Origin: Azolla caroliniana
Taxonomy: Eukaryota; Plantae; Polypodiophyta
DNA: 64,000 nucleotides
Assembly: GCA_043228905.1 (NCBI GenBank)
Contig: JBHGNT010000010.1
Span: forward strand, 2,728,001-2,792,000
Reading direction: 5' to 3'
Shown here: positions 12,443 through 54,300 of the stretch, piece after piece
Numbering within the stretch: the stretch's first letter is position 1
Layout of the letters: the number at the start of each line of letters is the position of its first letter
The notes under the pieces: model-generated
Database searches by the model: none
What the model saw: only the letters and a program-made list of their open reading frames with translations
What the model was told of the DNA's origin: nothing
Made by a program: the position numbers and the translations under genes

Positions 12443-12621
12443 TGTTGAGAATCGAACTCAACTTCCCATGGAAATAGGTTTCACACTAGCTCATGGACAT
12501 ACATACCATGCTAGTTTTTGTAAATAGTAGAAAGGTCCCTTGCCCTAGTTTAGTTGGTATTTAAACCAACCTTTTGTAACTTTGTTACTGTTGGAAGTAA
12601 TACATAGTTTTCTCATCTTAA

Positions 12622-12668
<47 letters not shown>

Positions 12669-13706
12669 GTGCTCAAACTCACACACACAGTCCTACCGAT
12701 GCATACAATCACTCTCCTTTCTTTACATGGTATCAGAGCGTGTGGTTTTCTGATCAAGACAAATCGACTGTGGTGTTCTACATACCGACGATCAACAGAA
12801 CCGGTTCAAGAACCAAAGAAGAAATAATCATGAATACTCAGATGGGAAGCGCTCTTCCTACGGAGAAGCTCGACAGGACAAACTTCGCATCTTGGGATTA
12901 CAAGATGCATCAGTACCTTGTCAAACAAGGATACTAGAGCTATATTGAAGGAGCTCATGAAACGCAACCCAACCCAACACACGGTGACTATCCCGTTTGG
13001 GAACAGTCCGCAAGTCGTGCGTTGTATTGCCTTGAATCATGCGTACATAATCACATGCTCGGCTATATTCGAGAGAAGAAAACGCCAAAAGAAGCGTGGG
13101 GAAATCTCAAGAAGATCTTCGCGGCCAATACGGTTGCCCACAAGCTCCAGCTTCGTCAGGAGTTGAATGGCATTCAACAAAGGGACATGTCAATCATCAG
13201 CTACGCCTTGAAGATCAAGGCGTTGTGCAATGCCCTTTGGTCAATCAATGTTGGCATTGATGATGAAGAAATGGTGCCAATATGCCTCAGAGGCTTGGCA
13301 CCTCGATTCAGTGCAATAAGGTCCCCCGTCCTCGCAAGAGAGAATCCTCCCACCTTTTTCGATCTCCAGTCAATATTGTTGGTCGAGGAAAATCACGCCC
13401 GACAAAGGGGCAATGCACCAGAGGGTCGGATGCTCTACTCCCAGTCGGATGATAGAAGAAATTTCGGCCGTGGAAATAGAGGTCAATTCGAACAAGGCCG
13501 TCACAGTTAGCAGACCCAAGAGCATAACTCCCACCAATGGCAAGCGGACAGGAACAATCCCAGAGAGTTCGGCAAAAGGGGCAGTCATCACACCGGACCA
13601 AGCAATCATGATAACCCAATCAAATGCGGATACTGCGGAGAACTCGGTCACTACAAAAAGGAGTGCCAAAAGAAGAAGTGAGAGTTGGCTTTAACCATCC
13701 GACAAC

Positions 13707-13802
13707 TCACGAACTACACATCGAATTCCGACTACGACAATCGTAGCAGAATGTTCACGAATTACACATCGAATTCCGACTACGACGATCGTAGCGGAAT
13801 GT
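13707..13802 (+). repeat. 48-bp in-frame tandem duplication in Copia D
   Basis: TNYTSNSDYDNRSRMF / TNYTSNSDYDDRSGMF. Confidence 0.9.
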
Positions 13803-14522
13803 TCATGATGAGGCACAAAGCGCACTCAATAGTGACAGAAGGTGAAACAAGCACCATGCCCTCAGAGAATGTATGGTTTGTTGACTTGGGAGCATCCAAC
13901 CACATGACGTCTCATGAAGATTGGTTTCGGGAATTACGAAAACCCGAACGTCCTAGATATGTCAAGACAGGCGATGACACGACTCATCCAATACAGCATA
14001 TCTAGAATGTTCCATTCGGAAACGAAGGCAAACAAACCTACCTCAAGAACATACTGCATGTTCCTACCATCACGAAAAACCTTGTCTCGGTCGGCCAGAT
14101 TGTCGAACAAGGAATGCAAGTACGATTCAAAAATGATGGGTGCTTTATTGAAAGAGGTGATCGAGTTGTAGCTTACGGTCGTCGTGAAGGCCGTATGTTT
14201 GTCCTCGAATCGAACGAGGTAAAATTGGCAATGTTTGCAAAGGGCCTCAAAGTCGAAACTACCTAAACTTGTGGCACAAGAGAATTGGTCACATCAATCT
14301 CCAGAAACTTCAGAACATGCAATCGAAAGGAGTCGTAATCGAACTCCCAAACTTTACCGCGAAGGAGATTACGGGCATATGCGAAGCGTGCCAGTTTGAA
14401 AAGCAACGCCGAAATCCATTCCCAGAAGAGCAGAATGTGAGGAAAGGGATCCTGGATGTTGCACATTCAGATGTATGGGGACCGACCTAGACAACCACAC
14501 TCGACGGATGCCGATATTACGT

Positions 14523-14780
14523 TGTCATGAAGAATTTCGTCCAGAGGCGGAAACCGAGAAATATTGGCTACATTGGCAGGGTGCACCATGTGCACTCACC
14601 CTCGTGTAATTGTGTGAATAATAGGAGTTAAGTCGGGACGAAGAATCCCATGCAAATCAGGATTTATCCCACATTGTAATGCATCCCTCTCCTTGTTCTA
14701 TAAAAGGAAGGGATGGTCCCTTGTAGAAGAGTTGCCCATTTTGTATTAGTAGGGTATACCGTTAGACGGAGAGACATTCT

Positions 14781-14847
<67 letters not shown>

Positions 14848-15337
14848 TTAGGGTTTCTTCTTCTTCTTCTGCTTCTTCTTCTTCTTCGTCCTTCTGTGCG
14901 TCGAGCCTTGGCATCTAGCGTTCCAGTTTTCTACCCTGTACTCTGTGCAAGACCCCGCTCGGCACGACAAGCCCGAGAGCTCCCCGACCGGTAGCTTGGC
15001 AGTAGTCAACGGTTGTATCTCATGCGGCCTAGGTTCGGCTAGAAGTCGGTGTTGAATCTCGTTGTCTTGTAAATACATATACATTTGGTTGTGCATATTC
15101 GGGTCTCTGTTGGTGTGCGTGTGTGTGTCTTAGTGTTTCTTTCTGGCTTATGTACATGTTCGTGCGAGAGTCAATGTTGCATGCCTGCTCTCTCTCACTC
15201 TCTCCCTTCGGTTGCTTCTAATGTGCTCCTGGGGTGCCCTGGGAAAGGTGAAGCACGATTTCCTACGCTCCGTCACTCCCTAGTCCAAGACCCCCATGGT
15301 CCCCCCTTTCTCCACGCACGCACGTAACAACGCGACA
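14523..15337 (+). mobile_element. Solo-LTR-like element E1
   Basis: TGTCATGA...CGCGACA, flanked by ACGT on both sides. TATAAAAGGAAGGGA at ~14699 and a (CT)n tract; shares blocks with E2. Confidence 0.75.
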
Positions 15338-15341
15338 ACGT

Positions 15342-15888
15342 TGTTGTGAAGATTTCCGGCTACGGTGTGAAACCGGGATGGAATGGGCAAGTCGGCGGAG
15401 TGCAACATGTGCACACTTACAATGTAAAATGGTGTAAAGAATAAAGAGGGGAAATTTATCCCACATTGTAAGGTCCCTCCCTCCTTGGGCTATAAAAGGA
15501 AGGGAGGGGTCACTTGTGAAGCGGTTGCCTATTTTGAGTGAGAGAGGCATACCACTTAGGTCGAGGGTTTCCTACTTGGTTTTAGGGTTTCTTCTTGGGT
15601 TTCCTTTAGGGTTTTACTATACTTCTTTACTTGCTTATCCGGTTAGGGTTTTCTTGTAGTCTTTGGGTGAGGCCTATGCGGCCATGGTTATAATGTGTGT
15701 GGTGTTCTTCTTAATACAAACCATTTGTGTATCTTGCCTCCATCATTTTCTTGTTCAATGTTAATGTTTTATTCCTTCTCCTCTTGAGCTAAGCTTCCAT
15801 TTCATGTCTTACTCTTTCTCTACTCCCTAGTCCAAGACCCACGTGGTCCCGCCTTGGATCTTACATGCGCTCGCGGATTTTCATGACA
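15342..15888 (+). mobile_element. Solo-LTR-like element E2
   Basis: TGTTGTGA...TCATGACA, flanked by ACGT. Shares ATTTATCCCACATTGTAA, TATAAAAGGAAGGGA and CTCCCTAGTCCAAGACCC with E1. Confidence 0.75.
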
Positions 15889-17679
15889 ACGTCACGTTCA
15901 TCGACTACGTCTACACGCACACTTGGATCTACCTGATGAGACAGAAGATCGAAGTGTTTGGACTCTTCCAGAGGTTCAAAGCTGAAGTCGAAAAAACTAT
16001 GGGTTGGCACGGATGCTGCCTTCGATCAAATGGAGGCAAAAAATATTTCTCGAATGAGTTTACGGTGTATCTTCGAAAGGAAGAAATCCGACAAGAATTT
16101 TCATGCCGTCACACACCTCAGCAAAACAGTGTAGCCGAGTGGAAGAACCGTGGTTGCCTCCATCATATGACGTGAAGAATGCCTTCCTCCAAGGGGAATT
16201 AGAGGAGCAAGTGTACATGATCCAACCACCTAGCTTTGAATCGCGCAATCATCTAAACGTCGTGTGTTGACTCAAGAAGCCACTTTACGGCCTCAAACAA
16301 GCACCGCGTGCGTGACATTCGAAGATCACGTAGTATCTTCATCAAATCGGATTTTGAATGTCAAAATTTGATAATTTTGTGTACATCCAAAATGAGTCAG
16401 ATAGCCCGATCGTCATCATCCTTTACATGGATGATTTGGTCATCGGAGGAAAGGAGCTCGTCAAGATTAACAAGGTCAAATCACTTCTCTCTGGCAGATT
16501 CGAAATGAAAGACCTGCATGAGCTCCATTTCTTCTTAGGCATCGAAGTAATTCAAACACTAGTCGAGATAATGATCTCACAACGACACTACGTCCTCAAC
16601 TTACTCTACAAGTTCGGCATGACGGAGTGCAAACCTGTGTCCACCCCATTTGACCGTAATCTCAAGCTTGATGTCGATTCCGGAACAACCGAGTGCGAGC
16701 CAACTCAATATCGCCAATTGATCGGCAACCTCATCTACCTAACCATTACGCGACCCAACCTCAGCTATTCGGTCAACCTACTTAACCAACTCATGTAGAA
16801 TCCGAGAAACCTTCATCTTCATTGCGATAAGAGGGTACTTCGATACGCCAATGGTACGATGGATTACGGCATCAGATACAAGTCAAAGAAATACGATAAT
16901 TTGACTCGAAGGGTACACAGACGCAGACTAGGCAAGTTATAAAGCGGATAGTCGGTCAACACCATGATTCATCTTCTCCCTCGGCAGCGGAGCAATCTCA
17001 TGGAGTAGCAAGAAGCAACTGACAGTCGCATTGTCGAGCATGGAGGCCGAATACAAGGGCGTGACGGTCGCCGCGTGTGAAGCCTTATGGCTCAAGTGTA
17101 CACTAAAGGATCTAGGCGTACCCATCAAGGATCCAATTCGTCTATACTGCAACAACATGAGCAGTATCTACCTGGCGCAGAACCCCGTATTCCACTCGCG
17201 AACTAAGCATATCGAAGTGCACTAGCACTTCATCCGTGAACGCATGCAAGCCGAAGATATAGACTTACACCACATCATCACGAATCTACAGGTAGCCAAC
17301 ATTTTCACGAAAGCCCTAGGTATCGACAAGTTGCGGCAGTTCACGTCGAACCATGGCCTATCTATTCCCGACCAACCAAGCTTGAGGGGGAGTACAAAAT
17401 AGTGAACCGATCGATTGATCGAAGCTGAACAATCAAAGTTCGAAGCATTCCGAAGACCAATCCGAAACAATTTTTTGATATCCGGAAGTTGTGTTCGAAG
17501 GGGCATGTTGAGAATCGAACTCAACCTCCCATAGAAATAGGTTTCACACTAGCTCATGGACCTACCATGCTAGTTTTGGAAATAGTAGAAAGGGCCCTTG
17601 GCCTAGTTTAGTTGGTATTTAAACCAACCTTTTGTAACTTTGTTACTGTTGGAAGTAATACATGGTTTTCTCATCTTAA

Positions 17680-17729
<50 letters not shown>

Positions 17730-18300
17730 TTCTCATAATTGCTCACACACATACACACAGTCCTACCGTTGCATACAATCACTCTCCTTTCTTTACATAC
17801 AAGTCTTTTTTTTTTACAACGTTAGGTTATTGCATTCCTACCAAGTTTTAGTTAGAGCTCTCTTTATTAGAGATATGTATTAAAGTAAGCATTAGATAAG
17901 GATAGATCTAGGTAGATAGAAAGAAGAGAGAAAGAAGGGTGCCGATCCACCCGACCACCCCCGAGCAAAGGGATCGAGACGGACTCGAGCCTCGATCGGC
18001 GTCCCATACCACCGTTGTGGCGTCAAGTCGTATCTGGTGCTGGGGCGCTCGCTATAAGAGTTGACCCACCACAAGACAGAGTCTCGACGTAGTCAACCAG
18101 ATTCTGAAATGAGGGTAGCTAGGCCTCTATTTATAGCGATACTCAAGGCCCCCAGCCATGTTCACACTTGGCCTAATGGGTTGTCTCAATCCCGAGGATT
18201 TAAAAGTAATCCTCCCCTTCTTCACACTCTCGTTTAACCCTCACACTTATCCACGTGTATAGAATACTACGGTAAATTCTCACCACGGGATATTATATGG

Positions 18301-21300
18301 TCATGCCCGTAACATACTCCCCCTCTTTAAAACATTGCACTCTTGCAATGGAAAGTTAGGGAAGTTAGTTGTGAGAGTACTCTCGCGTTCCCATGTGGCA
18401 TCTTTTATTGATTTATCCATCCATTTTATTTTAAATTCTCGTATTTCTTTAGTACGTAATTTTTTTGTTTTAACATTGAGAATTCTTTCTAGTACATGTG
18501 GTTTAGAAGATACATCTTCAGAAGTAACCAGAGTTTCAGTTGTAACTGTATTGTCGCCAGAACCTAGAAGTTCTTTTAGACGACTCACATGAAAGACTAG
18601 ATGAATTCCAACACCATCGGGAAAAGCAAGACAATAGGCTGATGACCCAATCGGTTTGAGGGCTGTAAAAGGTCCACAAAACCGTGAGGCTAACTTAGCG
18701 CACTTACCCGTAGACAATGTCTTAGAATTGTGAGGTACACGTAAAAATACCTTCTGTCCAGGGTTGAATACACGAGGTTGCCTATGATGATCGGCATAAA
18801 AACGCGCTCTATCTTGAGCTGTTTTTATATTATCTCGTGCAATATGCAACATATCTTGCATATCCCAAAGAAAGTTTTGCGTACTTCGCAACTCATCATG
18901 ATGTATATTAACATCAATCGGGGCTCGCGGCTGAAAACCATACATCAACATAAAAGGACTATATCCCGTCGACGTATGCTTGGAGCTGTTATAAGCAAAC
19001 TCCAATATTGGGAGATAACGTTCTCATTTTGTTGGTTTTGCACCAACATATGCTCGAAGCATGTCCTCAATAATTTGATTTACTCGTTCTGTCTGCCCAT
19101 CGGATTGAGGATGATCCATGGAGCTCATGCTCAACGTAGTTTCTAACTTCTTAAAGACTTGTGTCCAGAAGTCACTAGTAAATTTTGGATCTCGATCACT
19201 CACGATATTCATCGGTAAGCCATAAAAACGAAATAACTCGTCAACGAATTGGTAAGCCAATTCAGGAGCTGTTACCGTGGTTTTAGTAGCAATAAATCTG
19301 GCCATTTTAGTTAGTCTATCAACCACAACCCAGATGGCATCATGGCCTTTTTGGGTGCGAGGAAGGCTAACAATAAAATCCATGGATATACTTTCCCACT
19401 TATTATTGGGAATGTCCAAAGGATGTAAAAGTCCTGCGGCTTTAAGTCGCTCAGCTTTGTTAACCTGACATTGGTGACATTTAGTCACATAGCTATGTAT
19501 GTCCGGACGCATCTTAGGCCAATAAAATTGAGTGGAGATGAGAACGAGTGTATGATGTATTCTAGGGTGCCCTGCCGAGGGTGCATCATGGCATTCAAAA
19601 AGAATCCTCTTTTTGACCTCGGGTAAATCTGGAACACAAACCTTCCCATTACGGTAGAGCAGACCGTTAGCAATGTGGAAGTATTCCTTCGAGGATGTGG
19701 TGGTGTTTGTTCCAGACTCAACTCTTGCCCAGTATTTTGCAAAATAACTATTATCAGGATACTTTCCTCGAAGGTGATCATAAAGATCTGATGATATTTC
19801 AGTGAAGCTAAGCATGTTAACTTCACGGATGCGACTTAGTGCATCAGCAACTGTGTTCATGGAACCTTTACGATATCGTATGGAAAAATCAAAGTCCTAG
19901 ATGAGATCAGCCCATCGTGCCTTACGACCTTTCAGGTCTTGTTGGTCAAAAAAATATTTCAAGGACTCGTGGTCCGTAGTTACCACAAAGCGATTTCCAT
20001 AAAGATAATGGCGCCATGTTTTGAGCACATGTATAACTGCAAATAATTCCTTTTCGTGAACGGTATACCAACATTGAGCGAAATCAAGTTTCTTACTCTC
20101 GAATGCTATTGGTTTACCATCTTGATATAAGACAACACCTATAGCATAATTGCTTGTATCGGTTTCAACCTCAAAAGGTTTTGAAGGATCGGGTAAAAGA
20201 AGTGAAGGAGTCTTGCATACCAGGTCCTTGAGTTCCTTAAAAGTGAGGTCTAGTGTAGCATTCCACACAATAGGTTTTGTAGACTTACGTGTTTGACCTT
20301 TTAGAAGATCAGTAAACGGCGTCGTCAATTGGGAGTAATTACGAAGGGATTTTCGCAAAAACCCGACAAAACCAAGGAATGATCGAACTTCTCGAATATT
20401 CTGAAGAGTGGGCCAAAGCTTGATTTTCTCGATGCGAGAAGGATCAATTTCAACTCCTCGTTCGGTTATGAGATGTCCAAGATAAGTAATTGATTTCTTG
20501 AAGAACTCACATTTTGAGATCTTCGCGTAAAACTGTTTGTCACGCAATGTTTATAAAACAAAGCGGACATGTTTAGCATGTTCTTGTAATGTACGGCTAT
20601 AAACTAAAATATCATCCAAGAAAATAACGACAAATTTTCCAAGTTGTTCTCGGAAAATGTGATTCATTTCTTATTGAAATGTAGTTGGAGCATTGGTCAA
20701 ACCAAAAACCCTAAACTCTAAACTCATAATGGCCATAGCGCGTACGAAATGCCGTTTTAGGAACATCGTCCTCACTTATACGAATTTGATGGTAGCCAAT
20801 ACAGAGATCAAGTTTCGTAAAATACCGAGCTCCCTGGAGACGGTCAATTAGATCGTCGGCCCGGGGCAATGGATACGAATTCTTGATCGTTACTTTATTC
20901 AAGCGCCGGTAATTAATACACATACGCCATGTGCCCTTTTTCTTTTTAACCAAGAGAACTGGTGCACCCCATGGAGATTTACTATAACATATATAACCCA
21001 TTCGTAAATAGTCCTTGAGTTGCTTAGATACCTCATCATCTTCGGATCAACTTAAGCGATAAGGAGGTATACTTATTGGTGCAACACCAGGTACAATATC
21101 TATACGATGGTCTATATTATGTTTAGGAGGTAAGCCATTTGGTAGTTCACTCGGAAAAACATCACAAAAATCATTTAAGATTTCATCAAGTTGTTGTTGT
21201 TCAAAATATGTTAATTGAACCGAGACATTATCGATATTGTAAACGTGAATGTCTGGATCAAGTACACAATAAAATAGAGTAGAACAAGACAACTCGGATA

Positions 21301-22735
21301 TTGATGGACACGGGGAAACAATCGAGAGGGATTGTTTTTTTACACATTGAATAAAATGAGTATAATCGTTCAGTACAAATGTAATTGAATGATGAACCCA
21401 ATCAATAGATAAAGAAGAGCTTTTATTATAGAACCAGGGATAACCCAGTATTACATCAGTGGTACAAAGATTCATTACATGGAAGTCTACTTCCTCTATA
21501 TAAGTGTCAATAGAAATTCCTAATGAATGAATCGCCCCGTTTATGTATTGTACTCTTCCATCAGCCAAGTGCACCGTGTATGTGTGATCACTTACGGTGG
21601 GTTGGATTCCCCATATCTGAACCAAACGATCATTCACAAATTTGTGTGAGCTTCCCGAATCAAATAAAAATTGTACGGGAGATCCATTGATATACCCGTT
21701 TGCATGTAGTGAATCATTGGGACCCAATACATAGTGAGGGAAAGAACATTGACAATTACTTAAATGATGTGTATAGACCTGAAGGACATTAGGAATCTGA
21801 CCTTTATGGTCTGCAACTTTAGCTTTGTTGTCGTGCTCTTTCCGTTGGAGCTTTCGACATTGATCTTTTGTATGACCCTTCTTTTTGCAGAATACGCAAA
21901 AAGGATGTTGTCGCTTACAATCGCGATCCATGAATTCGTTGGGTGTCTTGCGTTTCCCAGCGAATTGCGACTGCTTAGTCCCAGGCGCTTCGTTGGGTTT
22001 ATTGTGGTCCTTCTTCGAAGTGTGTTGATAGCGAAGAACTATTTCAACGGCCTCTTCGAAGGATTTTGGATCCTTATCGTGCACTATCCAGTGATAGTCC
22101 GAATTGGGGATGCCATTGACAAAACAAGCTATTAACCAATTGTCCCCTTCTAGACCCAACTTTTGGATTTGGGTTCTAGCATGGTGGACATAATCTTCTA
22201 GCAAGGAAAATTTCCGACTAGAGAGGTTCATTAAAGTTTGTGTTGCCTCGGTTCGAGAGGGAGGTTGCAGAAATTGGCCCTTGAAGACTGTGACAAAATC
22301 TGTCCAGGTATCGGGCAATTTCCCCAACGTACGGAGCCCACGCCACCAGGTGGCGGCCTTACCCCCTAGTTCTCGGCCGACATATGCAATCTTCGTACTA
22401 TCTGGCGTGGGATAGAGCTCAAAATGAGACTCCCATCGGCCCAACCACGTGCAAATTGCTTCTTTGGTTTTTTCCTTTTTGTCTCCCGTAAATGGCTTAA
22501 CGACAAACGATGGTTCACCCTGTCGCTCATCAGGTCTATTAGTCTCACGTTGTAGACTAATGACACGTGCCTCGAGAGCACTTTGAGATTGCCGAAGTTC
22601 GGTCATCTGTTGAGCGATGAAACTAAGGTATTGGGTTATTTGCGAAAAATACATCTCAATGGACATTTGTCTAGGAGGATTCCCTTGAGTTCCTTCCGCT
22701 TGAGCGGATGACATCGGGTCGTTATTTTGAGCCAT
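18301..22735 (-). pseudogene. Gypsy F gag-pol with C-terminal chromodomain
   Basis: Gag with CVFCKKKGH, protease FDSGSSH, RT, RNase H, integrase SMDF/SDRD/GQTER, chromodomain-like ERIL..KIKW...DATWE. Broken into several ORFs by stops and frameshifts. Confidence 0.93.
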
Positions 22736-23904
22736 TAAATGATTATTTCTGGAAAAGAAATAGGATAAGGTCAAAGAGATAGTCATAACATCATGTCGTG
22801 ATGTAAACATATCATGGGCAAACATTAATCGATATCATGATCTCACGTCAATACCCCTCTAGACATATGAGATGAGGTTCAAGATCAAGTTACTATGGTA
22901 ACACAAAGGTGTTTTAAAAACCATGGGGGTGACAAATAAATGTCTTTCCCTAATCTCTATATCGATTTTTTCATGGTGGCTCTCCGAGGCTTAACCATGT
23001 ATGTTCGCGTCATGAATAGTTTATACACGAAAAAAATGTTAACAACAAACTATGTTTCTGTGCCCACATATGTGGTTTCGGCTCTTTAAGTCCTATTACG
23101 AAGACCCCGAAGTGCACTTAGACCTCAAGTCTAAACATGTGTTATAATTATATGTATCAACGATATTGTATGGTCTTGGTCATATTTGAACTCGAGACCT
23201 CGAGAACAAATGCATTAAACACTTGAGCCAACCAAGTAGGTTGCTCCTCTTGAATGTTTAATGTTTCATGCGTAGAAGAGATATGCGAGGCATTTGCCCA
23301 TATATGTTTTTTTAAAAGAAACATATATGTCAAGAGTCCTTATTTCGCCCTCATTTACTACAACTATGTTGGTACGTTACCTAACCTCAAGTCTCGTAAT
23401 TACGATGGCATACGCCAAAGTGCAACCTAATGGTCAAGCCAAATGAGCCCTCTTTTCGTAGTAGGCCCACGTGGCCCATCACATGGTCACGTCATTACAA
23501 ATGCCTCTCGTAAGAATGATCTCATGGTGGCATCGTATCCATGTAATGAGGGAGGGATGTTGGATATGTGTGTCATAAGAGCGACCTCACATGAAGTGGG
23601 TCAAACCCTACGTACTCAACATCATTATGGCTATTGGCATTTCTTTACGTAATGAAATATCGAAGTCACCAATGGGGATTTCAACAATAAAAAATTGTTG
23701 AAAAAAGGGATGGTGACAACACGATTCTCACAAAAATGTGAGGACGGCCATCAAGATCCTTTCCCCAAAAAGGAAAACATTCGATTTAAAATCACGTAAT
23801 AACTTATATACACATATGTATATTATCACATATATACGATCAACTACGTATACACATGACCACATATGCGTATATAAAAGAAATCGTTATATTTAATGGC
23901 CAAA

Positions 23905-24180
23905 ATTGACGTAATCGAGATACGTAATTGAGGCATATACCTCTACGCACACAAGACATCCAAAAATAAGGGTTCAACGTAATACGCAATTGAGGTATTA
24001 ACCTCTTACGCATACGAGACCAAACGCATATCATTTACAACAAAATCGTGGTGTTGACCTCATACGCAAACGTAACATATGTTCGTGTACGTAATACGTA
24101 ATTGAGGTATTAACCTCGTACGCATACGACACTCATCACATATTATTTATATGTCAAACAAGGTATTGACCTCGTGCACA
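23905..24180. repeat. Degenerate tandem repeats in the leader of F
   Basis: Recurring TACGTAATTGAGGTATTAACCTC..ACGCATACG motif. Confidence 0.7.
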
Positions 24181-25804
24181 TATGTAAACGTTTTATATAA
24201 CCAATTAAATACCACTACAACATCATTTAATTAATGAAAATAATCTACATATTAACCATACACATGATTAGATGGGAGAAGAAAAAAATAGACCAAAAAT
24301 AACAAGAAAGATTACCGAAGTTCCTTGTGGATCCTTGTCTGCATGAAGGCCAACCGCACAATGATCGATCGCCATCCATCGAGAAGATAAGACCAACAAA
24401 AGAAAGATTAGTACATATGCTCAGATACCAAATATTAGAGACATGTACTAAAGTAAGCATTAGATAAGGATAGATCTAGGTAGATAGAAAGAAAGGAGAG
24501 AGAGAAAGAAGGGTGCCGATCCACCCGACCACCCCCGAGCAAAGGGATCGAGACAGACTCGAGCCTCGATCGGCGTCCCATACCACCGTCGTGGCATCGA
24601 GTTGTACCTGGTGCTGGCGCGCTCGCTACAAGAGTTGACCCACCACAAGACAGAGTCTCGACGTAGTCAACCAAATTCTGAAATGAGGGTAGCTAGGCCT
24701 CTATTTATAGCGATACGCAAGGCCCCCGGCCATGTTCACACTTGGCCTAATGGGTTGTCTCAATCCCGAGGATTTAAAAGTAATCCTCCCCTTCTTCACA
24801 CTCTCGTTTAACCCTCACACTTATCCACGTGTATAGAATACTACGGTAAATTTTCACCACGGGATATTATATGGTCATGCCCGTAACACTCTTCCTCTCA
24901 CTCTCTGCATTCCTACCTACTTTTCTATTTGAGGTTAAGGCTTGATTTATCCTCTTAAGCAATTATGCTCTATCCATTGCAAGTGGTTCATGACTTGAGA
25001 TAGACATTGTGGGTTACTGCTCGTGTGTGATGTTCTTGCATTTTTCCTTATATGTGATGATGTGCATGTAGAATTCATACAAAGATTGATATTTCTATCA
25101 TCTTTTGTTGGTTGCATGTAAATGAATGAACATCCTATTGTAGCTCTAAAGGGGTTGGGAATCAAATTACAATGGCATTCTTGGGAATAAGGTATCTCGT
25201 GGTTAGTATTGAAGGAGATGTGGAATAGGTAATCAATGTAACTGTAGCTTTAGTAGTTCTATGTGTGAACAACATAACTAGCACAATCATTGGTCCTTTC
25301 TTAACTTCCCTCTTAAATAATGCGCAAATAAAAAACGAAGTTATATGTGCATCCCAAATCACCAAATTTAACTCATCCTTAAATCACTAAGCCAATATTT
25401 GGTACAATACTTTGTGTCAGCCTATTTCCTCACTTTTGACATAATCCACAACTTCTTGTTGACAGTCCATTGAAAGATCTCTCACAAGGAAACTCACTTG
25501 CTCTTTTACATGGCATATCAACTTCCAAAAGAAGGGTTCTTGCAATTTGTGATATGTTCCAACAACTCGCATAGGAACTTTTGCATTGACCCATGAAGAA
25601 AACCTAAGAAGTGTCTTTTTATATGTGTTCTATGAGTTAATGGAGACCGTGCTTGGGGTTTTAGATTAATTTATCCGCATGATGATTGCATGAATTGGCT
25701 AAGAATCATGACCATATAGTTAAGTTCAAGTGGAGACGGGGAAGGGGGGGTTGTCGTGGTGGTATGATCATTAAATTGATAAGATATTTAGTTATTTGGT
25801 GCCA

Positions 25805-35342: not shown

Positions 35343-38300
35343 CTACTTCAAAAGATTGCACTCTTGCAATATAAAGTGAGGAAATTGTGCCTTAAGCGAA
35401 TGCTCGCGTTCCCATGTGGCATCATCAATAGGTTTATCCATCCATTTGATCTTGAATAGCCGAATCTCTTTAGAACGTAAACGTTTAGTACGAGAATCAA
35501 GAATTCGTTCAGGAACATGAGGTTTGTAAGAAAAATCCTCTAATGTTACAAGATCTTGGATTGTGATGGTGTTATCACCAGAGCCTAAAAATGGTTTTAG
35601 ACGACTAACGTGAAAAACAGGATGAATACCCACGTTACGAGGTAAGGCAAGGTGATAAGCAGATGACCCAACTCGCTTAAGGATTTCAAATGGGCCACAA
35701 TATCGTGGGGCTAACTTAGCGCACTTGCCCGTAGATAATGACGTAGAATCAGTCGGGACACGCAAAAAAACTTTTTGACCAATAGTAAATGCACGAGGAC
35801 GTCTATCCTGATCAGCATAAAATCGAGCACGATCTTGAGCTGTCTTGACATTTTCTTTGGCAATATGCAACATTTGGTTCATGTCTTGCAAAAAATTGCG
35901 TGTACTGTCTAATGTATCACGATGAATCGTGACATCAACTGGGGCACGTGGCTGAAAACCATACATCAACATAAAAGGACTATATCCAGTGGATGTATGT
36001 TTAGAGCTATTATAGGCAAATTCTAAGATAGGAAGGTATTGCTCCCACTTAGAAGGGGTTTTTGCTACATAAGCTCGAAGCATGTCCTCAATAATTTGAT
36101 TAACTCGTTTAGTTTGTCCATCAGACTGAGGATGATCTGCGGAACTCATGCTCAACGTAGTTTCTAGTTTCTTAAAGACCTGAGTCCAAAAGTCACTAGT
36201 AAACTTGGAATCTCGATCACTAACAATATCCATCGGTAATCCATAAAAACGAAATAACTCATCAACAAATTGATAAGCCAACTGTCGAGCGGTTACCGTG
36301 GTTTTTGTAGGAATAAATCTAGCTAATTTTGTTAGCCTGTCAACGACAACCCATATGGCATCATGACCCCTCTGTGTACGAGGTAAACTAACAATAAAAT
36401 CCATCGAGATACTTTCCCATTTATTGTTGGGAATATCTAAGGGATGTAAAAGACCAGTAGCTTTAAGTCGTTCCGACTTATTAATCTGACATTGTAAGCA
36501 TTGAGTTACGTATTTATGCACGTCAGAGCGCATCTTAGGCCAGAAAAAAGTACACGAGATGAGAACGAGTGTGCGTTGTATTCCAGGATGACCAGCAGAT
36601 GGTGCATCATGACATTCATGAAAAAATTTCTGTTTAACATTTGGTAAATCTGGAACACAGATCTTTCCACTACGGTAGAGCAAACCGTTTGTAATGTGAA
36701 AGGTCGCCTTCGAGGGTAGGGTGCTAGTATCGGCATCTAAACCAGATTCGGCTTTCGTCCAGTATTTTGAGAAATAACTGTCATCAAGGTATTTCCCTCG
36801 AAGGTGATCTAAAAGATCAGATTTTATTTCCGTGAAGCTAAGCATGTTAACTTCTTTAATGCGACTAAGAGCATCAGCAACGGTGTTCATAGAACCCTTG
36901 CGATATCGTATGGAAAAATCAAAATCTTGCATAAGGTCAGCCCAACGGCCTTTACGACCAACAAGATCGGGCTGGTCACAAAAATACTTTAATGATTGAT
37001 GGTCTGTTGTAACCACAAATTTATTTCCATAGAGATAGTGCCTCCATGTTTTAAGTGCGTGTATCACCGCAAACAACTCTTTCTCTTGAACCGAATACCG
37101 AGATTGAGCAGCATCAAGCTTCTTACTTTCAAAAGCAATAGGGTGACCACCTTGATAAAGAACGGCACCAATAGCATAATCACTAGCATCGGTTTCAATT
37201 GAGAAAGGCTTAGAAGGGTCTGGTAATAGAAGAGTGGGAGCCTGACACACATGCTCCTTGAGTGTCTCAAATGATTTGTCAAGTTTTTCATTCCATGAAA
37301 TTGGTTTGACAGACTTACGTGGATGACCTTTTAAAAGATCAGTTAATGGCGTAGTCAATTTGGAATAGTTACGAATTGATTTTCGTAAAAATCCAACAAA
37401 CCCTAAGAATGATCTAAGTTCACGAATATTACGAGGAATGGGCCAAAGTTTAACCTTTTCAATACGAGAAGGTTCAATTTCAACGCCCTTTTCTGTAATT
37501 AAATGACCTAGGTACACAATAGATTTTTGGAAGAAGTCACATTTTGAATGTTTTGCATAGAAAGAGTTGTCACGCAACTTTCGCAAAACAAATCGAACAT
37601 GTTGAACATGATCTTGCAAGGTACGGCTATATATCAAAATATCATCCAAGAAGACGACAACAAAATCACCGAGTTGATCTCGGAAAACATCATTCATCGC
37701 TTGTTGGAATGTGGCTGGAGCATTAGTCAACCCAAACGGCATGACTAAAAACTCATAATGGCCATAGCGCGTACGAAAAGCGGTTTTAGGAATATCATCC
37801 TCGGCGATGCGAATCTGATGATAACCAGTTCGTAAGTCAATTTTCGTAAAATATCGAGCCCCGTGCAAACGATCAATCAAATCATCGGCACGAGGTAATG
37901 GATATGCATTCTTAATTGTCATTTTATTCAAACGGCGATAATTGATACACATTCGCCACGAACCTTCCTTCTTCTTGACTAATAGAACTGGCGCACCCCA
38001 AGGTGATTTACTATACCTAATGTGGCCCATACTCAAGTATTCCTTAAGTTGTTTAGCGATCTCATCCTCTTCTAATCGACTAAGTCGGTAAGGTGGAATG
38101 CTCACAGGAGCAGCCCCAGGGATGAGTTCAATTTGATGGTCCACATTACGTTTAGGTGGTAAAGTAAGCGGTAATTCAGTAGGAAACACATCTTGAAAAT
38201 CCTCTAAAATAGAGTCGAGTAATCGTTGCTCAAAATGTGGTAATTGTGTGGCGTCAATATTAAAATAATAAAATTGAACCGCAGGATCAATTACACACGA

Positions 38301-39746
38301 ATAAATTAATGAACTAGAATACTCACTTAAAGATTTAGAAGACACAAGTGAATGAGAAGGAAGTTTGGAACATTGAATAAAATGTTTACAATTATTAAGT
38401 TCAAATGTGATTGAGTGATTAACCCAATCAATGGACAAAGAAGGGTTTTTATTAAAAAACCAAGGATATCCTAAAATGACATCTGCGGATTGTAATTTCA
38501 TAACATGAAAGTCAAGCTTCTCCAAATAAGTATCTATTTGAATTGGCAGTTGACAAACAATGCCACTGATGTATTGAACGTTTCCATTTGCCATGTGAAC
38601 TTGATAGATATGATCACTTGCGTTTATGTGGAGCTCCATTTGCTGCACAAAGTGATCATTAAGAAAATTGTGAGAACTACCAGAATCAAACAAGAAATGT
38701 GCTTGTGTTCCATTGATATATCCGACTGCTCGGAGTAAATCATTAGGTCCAAGTAAATGTGAAGGAAAAGTGCATTCACATAAACTTAAGTGATTGGTAT
38801 GAACTTCAACAATATCAAAAGACTCACCTGTGTGACTCGTAGATTTGTCTTGAGGAGGGGTGTTCATTGACTTCCTCTCAAGACGACGACAGGTATCCTT
38901 TGTGTGGCCCCGCTTCTTGCAATATGCACAGAAGAGGTTCGGTTTCTTTGAGTCGCGGTCAAGAGTGTCACTGGATTGCTTACGTTTCCCAATGAACTTG
39001 ACATTCGGAGTTTTGGCGAACTCAGGTTTATTGTGGTCTTTCTTGGAAGTCCTATGGTATCGCAGCACAATGTTGACGGCTTCCTCGAAAGTTGTGGGGT
39101 CCTTGTCATGGACAATCCAATGATAATCCCCATTGGGAATACCATTCAAAAAACAAGCGACAAACCATTTCTCACCCGTAAGTCCCGATTTTTGGATCTG
39201 GGTCCGAGCGTGATGCACATAATCCTCGAGAGAGGTAAATGGCTTACTAGACAATGTGAGCAAGTGTTGCGCTTGTTCGGTTTGAGAAGGTGGCTGCAAG
39301 AATTGTTTCTTAAAAACATCAACGAAACCTTCCCAAGTTGTGGGTAAGTTTTTTGCGGTCCTTAGGCCACGCCACCAAGTAGCAGCTCGGCCACCTAACT
39401 CACGACCGACATAACCAATTTTTACTGCATCGGGCTTGGGATGAAGCTCAAAGTGAGACTCCCAACGACCAAGCCAAGTGCTAATAGCCTCCTCGGTTCT
39501 TTCTTTCTTATCTCCCTTGAAAGGCGTGACTACGAAGGAAGGTTCACCTTCTTTCTTGGACTCAATAGTTAATTCTTGGAATTTCTTTTCCAATGCCATA
39601 TTGGCCTGTCTCATTTCGGCCAATTGATTCAAGGTAGTAGTGAGCAATTGCTCAATAGTGATCTCAGCTTGTGTGCGAGATGCGGATTGGGGTTGAGAGG
39701 TCTCATTTGAAGAGATCGTTCCAACTGCGTTCAAAACTTGTTCCAT
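35343..39746 (-). CDS. Gag-Pol polyprotein, 1467 aa (gag, CCHC, PR, RT, RNase H, IN, chromodomain)
   Basis: Uninterrupted ORF with [43 protein letters not shown] and KIKW..DATWE. Confidence 0.95.
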
Positions 39747-40754
39747 GATGCACGCTGTGGGTATGCAATAAAATAAGGAGGTTCAGAAAATACACAAGCA
39801 AAATGAATGCTTGAAATTTTGATTGAAAGAACTTTATCCAAGAAAGTATCTCATGTCTTTACCCCTCTAGACATATGAGATGTAATTCGAGATCCGATAA
39901 CTATGGTAACACTATGGTGTTTTAAAAACCATGGGGGAAAACATAGCTAAGATGTATTTCTCGGATCTCTATCTTGAGTAATCATGGCGGCTCCCCGAGG
40001 CTCAACCATGGTTCTTACATCAATGAAATTTCCTAGATAGCCTTATATTAATGCCAACCCATCATGTATTATATGGTCGAGAAAGTGTATTACGTGAAAA
40101 AACAAGTGCACTCACAAGTAATATTCTAGTCTTGCGAGCAATAAGCAAACGTGATGATAAAATGATCAAATAAGGCACTACTCATAAGAGTTAAGTAGTG
40201 ACGAAAACAAGGGTAAAAAAAAAGAACCCATGTGTTACCTACGAAAAAAACAATGTCACAAATAAATGGGAAGTGCGAGGTATGCACATATACATCCCAA
40301 TATGATTGTTATAACTTGCACAATTGTGACATAAGCCACAAATTGATACAAGTGATGACGGTGTTGTGCGCAAAGATGTAATACTCAAATCCATGAGTAA
40401 AACATCAATAAGGGAACTCATATGGTTTTACTCGTTTTCTAAGGCTTGATGATAAGAGTTAAACCTAGATGACCCGTTGAAAAAAAATCGTTCAACAAAC
40501 CACTCCATACGAAAAAATAGTCTACACGTAAAGGTTACATTAAAATAAACGATGTAAATACTTTATACATGAAAAGGAAGTGGAAAAAGGAGAGTTAATT
40601 GTGGGCGGGTAAATAATAATTACTAGAAAATCATATAAGTGAAACAATACTTATGAAATTAAAATTTAATTAGAATAATCAACAATTAGGTGTATGGAAT
40701 CAAACATGCCCTAAGATACGAAACCCTAGGGTAGTTGACATGCACCTCCTCAAG

Positions 40755-52396: not shown

Positions 52397-52897
52397 TTTT
52401 TATACAAATGGTAAGGCCACATACCACAAATTCATTCATTCCTTCATCTTCTTCATAGCTCTATTGAGGTTAGTGCTCAATATTATCAACTAGTGCTCAA
52501 TCATATGGACTCTTCCCTTCTTTATACATATGTACTTTGGTTTGCTTGATTTTGACATGACACTTCATTGGGCAGCTTCCATCACTAATCAGTGCCATAT
52601 GTTTCTTAAATTTTATATTTAAGTGGATTTGCCTTGCCTGAATCATGTATTTTAATTTTACACAATTCACCAGTAAATCGAATCTCGAGCGTCCGCATAA
52701 TCATTCATTAGCTTGACCTAAGATATTTATTTGCTGAGTAAATTTCATGAGAAAACATACAGATTCAAATTTGTGGTTTACTTATAGGCAATTTTAATAT
52801 ATATAGGGAACTTAACTTCTTAATTGTGATGAATTAGGACTAAATGGCGTCATGGTACATGGCTATGAACTGAGCTAATTCGATCAGAGGGACGGTG

Positions 52898-54300
52898 ATG
52901 ATGATGGACTCAACACAAGAGCCATCATCATGGGCAATGCCAGTAGACTCGGAGAACAAGGCGAAAAAGATCAGATTGTGGTCATTCGAGAAGCCGCACA
53001 TGAGGGCATTCCACCTTGCATGGCTATCATTCTTCATATGTTTCGTGTCCAGCTTCGCGGCGGCTCCATTGCTACCCATCATAAGAGACAATCTAGACCT
53101 AACCAAGAAAGACATCGGCAATGCGGGCATAGCCTCGGTCACTGGAGCCATCATGTCTCGAATCATCATGGGGGCATTATGTGATTTGATTGGACCTCGC
53201 TATGCTTGTGCATCATTGGTCATGCTTACGGCCCCGGCAATCTTTTGCATGGCCACGGTGTCCACCACAGTCGGCTTCATCTTGTCGCGTTTCTTCATCG
53301 GGTTTTCCCTAGCCACTTTCGTGTCTTGCCAGTTCTGGATGAGCACCATGTTCTCGGCATCTATAGTCGGCACGGCCAATGGTATCACCGCGGGTTGGGG
53401 TAACCTTGGTGGTGGTTTCACCCAACTCATTATGCCTCTAATCTTCGAGCTCATTAATGGTCCTTTGAGATCTCCGAGCTTCACCGCATGGCGCCTCGCC
53501 TTCTTCGTCCCCGGCACTATGCACATCCTCATCGGTCTCTTTGTCCTCTTCTTCGCCCAAGACTTGCCTGATGGGAATGTGAAGGAACTCAAGGCCAAAG
53601 GTCTCAAAGTCAAGGACAACTTCTCAAAGGTATCCATGGACATGAAGATCCAGCCCCTCTCTTCTTCTTCTTCTTCTTTTGCAAAGCTTTTTTCAAGAAC
53701 CCAAAAAATCAACTTTGTTTTTTGTCTCCATGTGAAACAAATGTATGCTTGTGTAGTATGTGTCTTCATGTACTTGCTATATCTAATAATGTTGTCTTCC
53801 CTTTACTATTTAATTTTCCTAGGTGGTGATTAATGCTGTTACCAACTATAGGACATGGGTACTTGCCCTAGCATATGGGTATTGCTTTGGTGTCGAGCTC
53901 ACCGTGGACAACATCATAGCACAATACTTCTATGACAAATTCAACCTCAACTTGCACACGGCTGGCATTATCGGCTCGGCGTTCGGTCTCGCCAATATCG
54001 TCACTCGACCATTCGGAGGTGTATTGTCGGATTGGATAGCTCGTCCATACGGCATGCGTGGCCGATTATGGACACTCTGGCTTATTCAAACAATGGGTGG
54101 TGTGTTTTGCATAGCACTGGGATTGGTTGGAAATTTGGGAGGAGCCATCATAGCCATGATTCTTTTCTCCTGCTTTACTGAAGCTGCATGTGGGGCTACA
54201 TTTGGGATCATACCATTTGTATCACATAGGTTTGATGCACATACATATTGGGACCTTACAATATTGCTATCATCAAATTAGAGATTTCTGTTATTTACAT

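What the first reader, a model, noticed from the sequence alone, without database searches (positions are those of the whole stretch)
14519..15892. Two related solo LTRs stacked at one target: ACGT-[E1]-ACGT-[E2]-ACGT
Seen: removing the insert restores the Copia D integrase frame (RYYVTFID). ACGT occurs at 14519-22, 15338-41 and 15889-92, bounding two TG..CA units of 815 and 547 bp. The units share TATA and terminal blocks but are otherwise diverged, and their ends look like CpG-decayed TGTCGCGA..CGCGACA. Established: most plant LTR elements make 5-bp, largely non-specific TSDs, as B, D, F, H and I do here. Inference: two independent insertions of a family with a 4-bp palindromic target, the second landing in the TSD of the first, each later reduced to a solo LTR. 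This would imply a sequence-specific integrase.
Basis: partly seen in the sequence, partly recalled or inferred. Interest (0 to 1): 0.8.

Follow-up and report, generated by a model that had tools for sequence, protein, structure and literature searches.

The report
Two CG-targeting retrotransposons at one hotspot
The leftover ends of two related jumping genes sit side by side at one four-letter target inside an older jumping gene; this CG-centred target is already described for their likely lineage, and the same spot is hit again and again in this genome, so the stack is likely two ordinary insertions at a favoured site.

Summary
Observation confirmed: ACGT-[E1, 815 bp]-ACGT-[E2, 547 bp]-ACGT interrupts a Copia integrase gene. 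E1 and E2 are solo LTRs of two separate multi-copy families. Their two-LTR copies have a tRNA-Trp PBS, a PPT and gag-like sequence but no pol. An abundant 7.8-kb Ty3/gypsy family without a chromodomain shares their termini, PBS and PPT and likely supplies the integrase. 152 of 159 target-side junctions have CG, or its decay TG/CA, at the centre of a 4-bp site. This matches the published Phygy clade (4-bp NCGN TSD, tRNA-Trp PBS; Neumann 2019), so the specificity is real but known; placement against a Phygy reference was not possible. Stacks recur: 22 other junctions, in all orientations and many family pairs. TSD re-use (about 0.2% per site) lies within the range of other fixed CG sites (0.07-1.7%). 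The unreported detail is that this Copia site is a hotspot: 19 insertions, mostly independent, about 25 times the rate at the PBS ACGT. An earlier scan note on this genome reached the same Phygy reading.

The parts
14519..14522 (.). Target-site copy 1 (ACGT)
14523..15337 (+). E1: solo LTR of a gag-only Phygy-like family (two-LTR copies 4.4-5.6 kb)
   Evidence: no PPT before it and no PBS after it here
14662..14743 (+). TATA-containing block shared by E1 and E2 (E2 copy at 15454-15536)
   Evidence: 84% identity
15275..15308 (+). Conserved block near the LTR 3' end (E2 copy at 15822-15855)
   Evidence: 91% identity
15338..15341 (.). Target-site copy 2 (ACGT), shared by E1 and E2
15342..15888 (+). 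E2: solo LTR of a second gag-only Phygy-like family (two-LTR copies 3.8-4.3 kb)
15889..15892 (.). Target-site copy 3 (ACGT)
14506..14522 (+). Left half of the recurrent insertion site in Copia integrase genes (GC-RYYV codons)
   Evidence: 19 insertion junctions genome-wide; 689 copies of the 17-mer
12443..17797 (+). Host Ty1/copia element D (LTRs 12443-12727 and 17506-17797, 5-bp TSD TACAA), decayed

Best explanation
E1 and E2 are solo LTRs of two related retrotransposon families that likely inserted one after the other at the same CG-centred four-base target and were likely each cut down to one LTR by recombination. Steps: (1) Shown: both are LTRs of multi-copy families whose two-LTR copies carry a tRNA-Trp PBS, a PPT and a gag-like region but no pol. 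(2) Inferred: they are mobilised in trans by an autonomous chromodomain-less Ty3/gypsy family with the same termini, PBS and PPT. (3) Shown at the level of insertion sites: the lineage duplicates 4 bp centred on CG (VCGB, ACGT commonest). That the integrase itself reads the CG is inferred. (4) Follows from TSD geometry: each insertion leaves two new copies of its target, so a later insertion can land in one and give target-element-target-element-target. (5) Shown: this Copia site is used about 25 times more often than the ACGT in the lineage's own PBS, which makes a double hit here unsurprising. (6) Inferred: LTR-LTR recombination removed each internal region and left matching ACGT flanks. The lineage is most likely Phygy.
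For: Flanks of the 80 listed E1/E2 hits: PBS TGGTGAACCCGACGTGAA after 5' LTRs and GGTGGGGG(C/T)GGA before 3' LTRs. The PBS is complementary for 18 nt to the genome's tRNA-Trp plus CCA (5 of 5 loci called tRNA-Trp). Two-LTR copies: 10 of 13 rows readable; the 4-mers are identical in 7, differ by 1 base in 1 and by 2 bases in 2. Target-side junctions: 130 CG, 22 TG/CA, 7 other of 159; the CG starts 3 bases before the element end in 130, and 2 or 4 bases before it in none. Genome-wide, CGN+TGTCGTGAAGA gives 6,008 matches (control 5) of 11,809, the rest including PPT and PBS junctions. Autonomous family A is about 7.6-8.2 kb, with gag(-PR) 735 aa and pol 1,170 aa RT-RH-INT, no Chromo hit. E1/E2 gag is 31-38% identical to gag A, and the E2 PPT region is 82-88% identical to A. 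Stacks: 26 matches = 22 junctions with a 4-nt spacer, against 2 at 5 nt, 2 at 6 nt and none at 0-3, 7 or 8 nt. They occur in all three orientations with many family pairs. Hotspot: 19 junctions; of the 12 opened, the inserts differ except for two pairs whose hosts are only 70-75% alike. Published Phygy traits: 4 bp 100% NCGN, tRNA-Trp 81%, 7,656-9,968 bp.
Against: No Phygy reference sequence could be obtained, so clade membership rests on structural traits, not on a tree. TatI also has a 4-bp TSD and a tRNA-Trp PBS; an extra archaeal RNase H was not seen in Pfam, but that is a weak test. Only the 40 best of 2,282 (E2) and 3,158 (E1) candidates were scored, so pol-bearing copies with E1/E2 LTRs may exist. 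Stacks are 2-6 times more frequent (26 matches) than a rough uniform-NCGN model predicts (4-13). 7 of 159 junctions are not CG-derived. The order of insertion is unresolved: nearest relatives differ by 4.6% (E1) and 5.2% (E2).
Confidence: 0.88

Rival explanations
1. The integrase has a dedicated preference for re-using the TSD next to an integrated element of its own lineage (end-homing), and the stack is its product.
For: 22 stack junctions against 4-13 expected matches under a uniform-NCGN model. About 0.2% of TSD sites are re-used, against 0.07% at the PBS ACGT. 21 insertions fall in the last 25 nt inside one LTR-end type (1,789 copies of the related 16-mer).
Against: For the same LTR-end type there are 21 hits just inside the end but only 3 four-nt stack junctions outside it. 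The ACGT beside the PPT (4 of 699, 0.57%) and the Copia RYYV site (12 of 689, 1.7%) are hit more often than TSDs. The PBS ACGT, about 20 nt from an LTR end, is cold.
Confidence: 0.07
2. E1 and E2 inserted at the same hotspot on different haplotypes and were joined by a rare exchange across the 4-bp TSD.
For: The site is hit independently in many Copia copies, so two alleles with different inserts at one locus are plausible.
Against: It needs an exchange at 4 bp of homology. Sequential insertion gives the same structure without that step, and 22 stacks elsewhere are not tied to this site.
Confidence: 0.03
3. The 1,366-bp insert is one mobile unit: a MITE-like element with terminal inverted repeats TGTCATGAA/TTCATGACA, or one element whose two LTRs diverged.
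For: The outer 9 bases are a perfect inverted repeat, and both units share blocks.
Against: The inverted repeat is the normal LTR terminus after CpG decay. Each unit has its own family with LTR pairs 93-98% identical, and no other E1 hit is followed by E2.
Confidence: 0.01

Closest known systems
Phygy clade, non-chromovirus Ty3/gypsy (Neumann et al. 2019, PMC6317226; passages and supplementary table MOESM5 read)
   Same: 4-bp TSD with NCGN preference, tRNA-Trp PBS, no chromodomain, no extra domain; family A length falls at the low end of the 7,656-9,968 bp range.
   Different: E1 and E2 belong to shorter gag-only families (3.8-5.6 kb), which that survey does not list in the passages read. Here the motif is refined to VCGB with strong site-to-site differences. 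Phygy was described as specific to Physcomitrella patens; the named relatives found here are from the liverwort Riccia and the fern Adiantum, and PMC12885004 (passages) reports Phygy in another liverwort.
Recurrent nesting of Phygy in Tcn1 elements (Jedlicka et al. 2019, PMC6911290; passages read)
   Same: Phygy copies recur at the same or similar position of a host retrotransposon, in both orientations and with different neighbourhoods; 4-bp TSDs have GC-rich centres.
   Different: The host here is a Copia integrase gene, the site is mapped to the base, and stacking in a TSD did not appear in the passages read.
ZAM of Drosophila (Faye et al. 2008, PMC2527525; abstract and outline read)
   Same: An LTR retroelement with a CG-rich target (CGCGCg) whose integrase binds and nicks target DNA in vitro; a precedent for integrase-intrinsic specificity.
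   Different: Insect lineage with a longer and stricter target. No such assay was found for Phygy.
TatI (OTA/Tat; PMC6317226 supplementary table)
   Same: 4-bp TSD and tRNA-Trp PBS.
   Different: TatI carries an archaeal RNase H and has no reported NCGN preference; family A shows only RT-type RNase H hits.

Membership tests
Phygy (non-chromovirus Ty3/gypsy) | 4-bp TSD | tested here: met
   spacer in stacks is 4 nt in 26 of 30 matches
Phygy (non-chromovirus Ty3/gypsy) | NCGN target preference | tested here: met
   152 of 159 junctions CG or TG/CA; 6,008 genome-wide matches vs control 5
Phygy (non-chromovirus Ty3/gypsy) | PBS for tRNA-Trp | tested here: met
   18-nt match to the genome's tRNA-Trp
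Phygy (non-chromovirus Ty3/gypsy) | Gypsy order RT-RH-INT, no chromodomain, no extra domain | tested here: met
   Pfam on 2 pol ORFs of family A; tested on the presumed autonomous partner, since E1/E2 copies lack pol
Phygy (non-chromovirus Ty3/gypsy) | Length 7.7-10 kb, polyprotein fills the internal region | tested here: inconclusive
   met by family A (about 7.6-8.2 kb); not met by the E1/E2 families themselves (3.8-5.6 kb)
Phygy (non-chromovirus Ty3/gypsy) | RT/RH/INT falls in the Phygy clade of the REXdb tree | not testable with these tools
   the reference FASTA and element table were too large to read; no named Physcomitrium hit among those listed
TatI | archaeal RNase H in pol | tested here: not met
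   no RNase_H (PF00075) or RVT_3 hit at E<=0.1 in 2 pol ORFs; weak test
Chromoviruses (Tcn1, Galadriel) | chromodomain; self-priming or tRNA-Met PBS | tested here: not met
   no Chromo hit in family A, whereas the window's own chromovirus ORF has one; PBS is tRNA-Trp
Solo LTR | single LTR, no PBS or PPT, matching TSD on both sides | tested here: met
   for both E1 and E2

The most novel reading that the evidence does not exclude
The Phygy-type integrase reads much more than NCGN. It homes to particular CG sites inside other retrotransposons (the Copia integrase RYYV codons, its own CG-rich LTR ends), perhaps by recognising methylated CG or a DNA shape, and so steers a whole guild of autonomous and gag-only families into already silenced DNA without a chromodomain.
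Probability: 0.2. Interest if true: 0.55.

Novelty: new member of a known kind. Interest (0 to 1): 0.24.

Why it matters
The core claim, a plant LTR lineage with a 4-bp CG-centred target, is true but was published in 2019 as the one exception among plant LTR retrotransposons. What this locus adds is modest and testable: a refined motif (VCGB), gag-only families sharing the trait, and a 25-fold spread in use between identical ACGT cores. My searches found no study of how Phygy recognises its target. The hot Copia site and the cold PBS site make a ready pair of substrates for such a study.

Tried and rejected
Single-unit (MITE or diverged-LTR) reading: rejected. Fixed palindromic ACGT target: rejected; ACGT is 31 of 159 junctions. 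Special TSD re-targeting: not supported. A flank motif to explain the hotspot: positions -6 to -1 show only weak bias in 130 CG junctions. Order of insertion from nearest-relative distance: uninformative. Phylogenetic placement: two homolog searches gave Riccia, Adiantum, Chara, fungal and many unnamed hits but no listed Phygy reference; no tree was built. Host taxon from a window ORF in the Atlas: uninformative. Outer TSDs of other stacks: far ends were mapped for only part of the 22 junctions; 4 match exactly, 3 differ by one CpG decay, 1 differs by one other base, 1 does not match, and the rest are PBS/PPT ends or out of range. Literature: 'NCGN'+'retrotransposon' gave 2 papers, 1 relevant; a search for same-target stacking gave 0. 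PMC7466625 and PMC11899658 (passages) had nothing on Phygy targets or TSD-sharing stacks. Word look-ups in the scan's notes found no finding holding all the words.

Full report
1. Observation. The host spans 12443-17797 with a 5-bp TSD. No other terminus of this lineage matched in the window.

2. What E1 and E2 are. Each is one LTR of a multi-copy family. The own-genome searches gave 2,282 candidates for E2 and 3,158 for E1, of which 40 each were scored. In one search I read the flanks of 80 of the 84 matches listed (4 partial second pieces left out). 5' LTRs are followed by TGGTGAACCCGACGTGAA, 3' LTRs are preceded by GGTGGGGG(C/T)GGA, and solo copies have neither. The PBS pairs for 18 nt with the 3' end of the genome's tRNA-Trp. 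Two-LTR copies are 4.4-5.6 kb (E1) and 3.8-4.3 kb (E2), with LTR pairs 93-98% identical. In 12 stretches tested, the inside of these elements gave a gag match where any was found (10 of 12; 31-38% to gag of family A) and no pol; the pol hits in L067 and L072 belong to flanking DNA. Here E1 and E2 lack PBS and PPT and have matching ACGT on both sides, so they are solo LTRs.

3. The likely source of integrase. An integrase fragment beside one E1 copy led to an abundant family A (16,215 candidates, 150 scored). In 20 stretches it is about 7.6-8.2 kb where both LTRs were found. LTRs are about 1 kb (TGTCGTGAAGA...TCTTCACGACA), with gag(-PR) of 735 aa and pol of 1,170 aa: RT, RNase H, integrase, no chromodomain. 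It has the same PBS, the same PPT as E2 and CG-centred 4-bp TSDs. That A or a sister family mobilises E1 and E2 is inferred. The named relatives of its RT-INT are from Riccia (up to 63% over the whole query), Adiantum (58-63% over part), then fungi and Chara (about 32-42%); most hits are unnamed. I did not establish the host plant; an earlier scan note calls it likely a fern.

4. Target specificity. I collected 159 distinct target-side junctions from all loci held at that point except those picked by the stack pattern, classing PBS and PPT junctions by pattern. 130 have CG and 22 have TG/CA at the centre of the 4-mer; 7 have neither. The first base is A 0.50, C 0.31, G 0.16, T 0.03, and the last base mirrors it, so the motif is VCGB. 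ACGT is used about 6 times its share of CG sites. Of 13 two-LTR rows, 10 were readable: 7 identical 4-mers, 1 with one difference, 2 with two. Genome-wide, 6,008 of 11,809 exact termini have CG at the expected place (controls 5 and 79). In a 55-junction sample, 18 were PPT or PBS junctions, which explains much of the remainder.

5. Is stacking special? A strict pattern finds 26 matches (22 junctions) with a 4-nt spacer, against 4 matches at all other spacers from 0 to 8. 23 of the 26 keep the CG and 3 show its decay. They join many family pairs head to tail, head to head and tail to tail, so this is not a fixed unit. A rough uniform-NCGN model expects 4-13 matches (genome CG count and insertion number are estimates), so there is some excess. 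Fixed internal sites vary more than that. PBS ACGT: 4 of 5,762 (0.07%; 8 with a relaxed end). ACGT beside the PPT: 4 of 699 (0.57%). TSD sites: about 13 of 6,008 (0.2%, assuming half of the one-sided matches had the older end on that side). For one LTR-end type, 21 insertions lie just inside the end and 3 stack junctions just outside. No TSD-specific rule is needed.

6. The site is a hotspot. The same Copia codons carry a lineage terminus at 19 places, this locus included; 689 copies of the 17-mer exist (the two patterns differ slightly). With strict ends this is 12 of 689 (1.7%), 25 times the PBS rate (Fisher p 2e-9). Of the 12 loci opened, inserts come from different families and both orientations. 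The two pairs with the same insert family sit in hosts only 70-75% alike, so they are independent events. Longer exposure of old Copia copies, chromatin, methylation or selection against insertions in the PBS may contribute; I could not separate these. The flank table shows no strong motif that explains the effect.

7. Mechanism. An integrase-DNA complex cuts the two strands 4 bases apart around a CG; repair duplicates the 4-mer; a second element of the lineage lands in one copy; LTR-LTR recombination later leaves each as a solo LTR. The target pattern, family structure and recurrence are shown. Integrase read-out of CG, trans-mobilisation and solo-LTR formation are inferred from established LTR biology, and the ZAM integrase is a precedent for intrinsic specificity (PMC2527525, abstract). 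The order of insertion is open.

8. Comparison with what is known. Neumann et al. 2019 (PMC6317226; passages; supplementary table) state that Phygy elements prefer NCGN and list 4-bp TSD 100%, tRNA-Trp 81%, 7,656-9,968 bp and no extra domain. Every such trait that I could test is met by the lineage; tree placement was not possible. Jedlicka et al. 2019 (PMC6911290; passages) already saw Phygy recurring at the same positions within host elements. PMC12885004 (passages) reports Phygy in a liverwort. Searches found no study of the targeting mechanism or of TSD-sharing stacks; subscription journals are largely outside that library.

9. Verdict. Real and correctly interpreted, but a new instance of a published lineage trait. 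The refined motif and the 25-fold hotspot are small additions. Interest 0.24.

Noticed in passing
G000 C1:23122694, C2:11547492, C16:14383427, C21:12132105: 4 of 18 matches are two LTR 3' ends joined tail to tail through the first bases after each LTR (LTR end, start of PBS, then the mirror image), with no target 4-mer; possibly an aberrant reverse-transcription or fold-back product.
   Followed up: no
G000 C8:17.80-17.82 Mb, C16:4.99-5.11 Mb, C5:10.105-10.112 Mb: Tandem arrays of the tRNA-Trp 3' sequence (63 matches genome-wide, spacing about 1.2 kb on C8); this is the primer tRNA of this very abundant lineage.
   Followed up: no
L073:4678-6337; L107: Internally deleted family A copies in which a duplicated PBS start runs directly into pol sequence; in L073 a further lineage element is inserted in the integrase fragment.
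   Followed up: partly
L061, L062, L075: E1/E2 copies with an extra partial LTR or a third LTR (3' LTR followed by another PBS): tandem LTR structures.
   Followed up: no
L007 (G000 C12:16982231): An E2-family 5' LTR directly after telomere-type CCCTAAA repeats, at a non-CG junction.
   Followed up: no
window 35343-39782 (-): Uninterrupted 1,479-aa chromovirus polyprotein with chromodomain; its LTRs are 99.6% identical, so a very young insertion. An older relative lies at 17865-24899.
   Followed up: partly
last 25 nt of E1-type LTRs: The CG-rich run before the LTR end takes 21 insertions, several at the GCGC core that is rarely used elsewhere (1 of 159 junctions); a hint of context-dependent targeting.
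   Followed up: partly
window 52874-53833 (+): 319-aa open frame with an MFS transporter domain.
   Followed up: no
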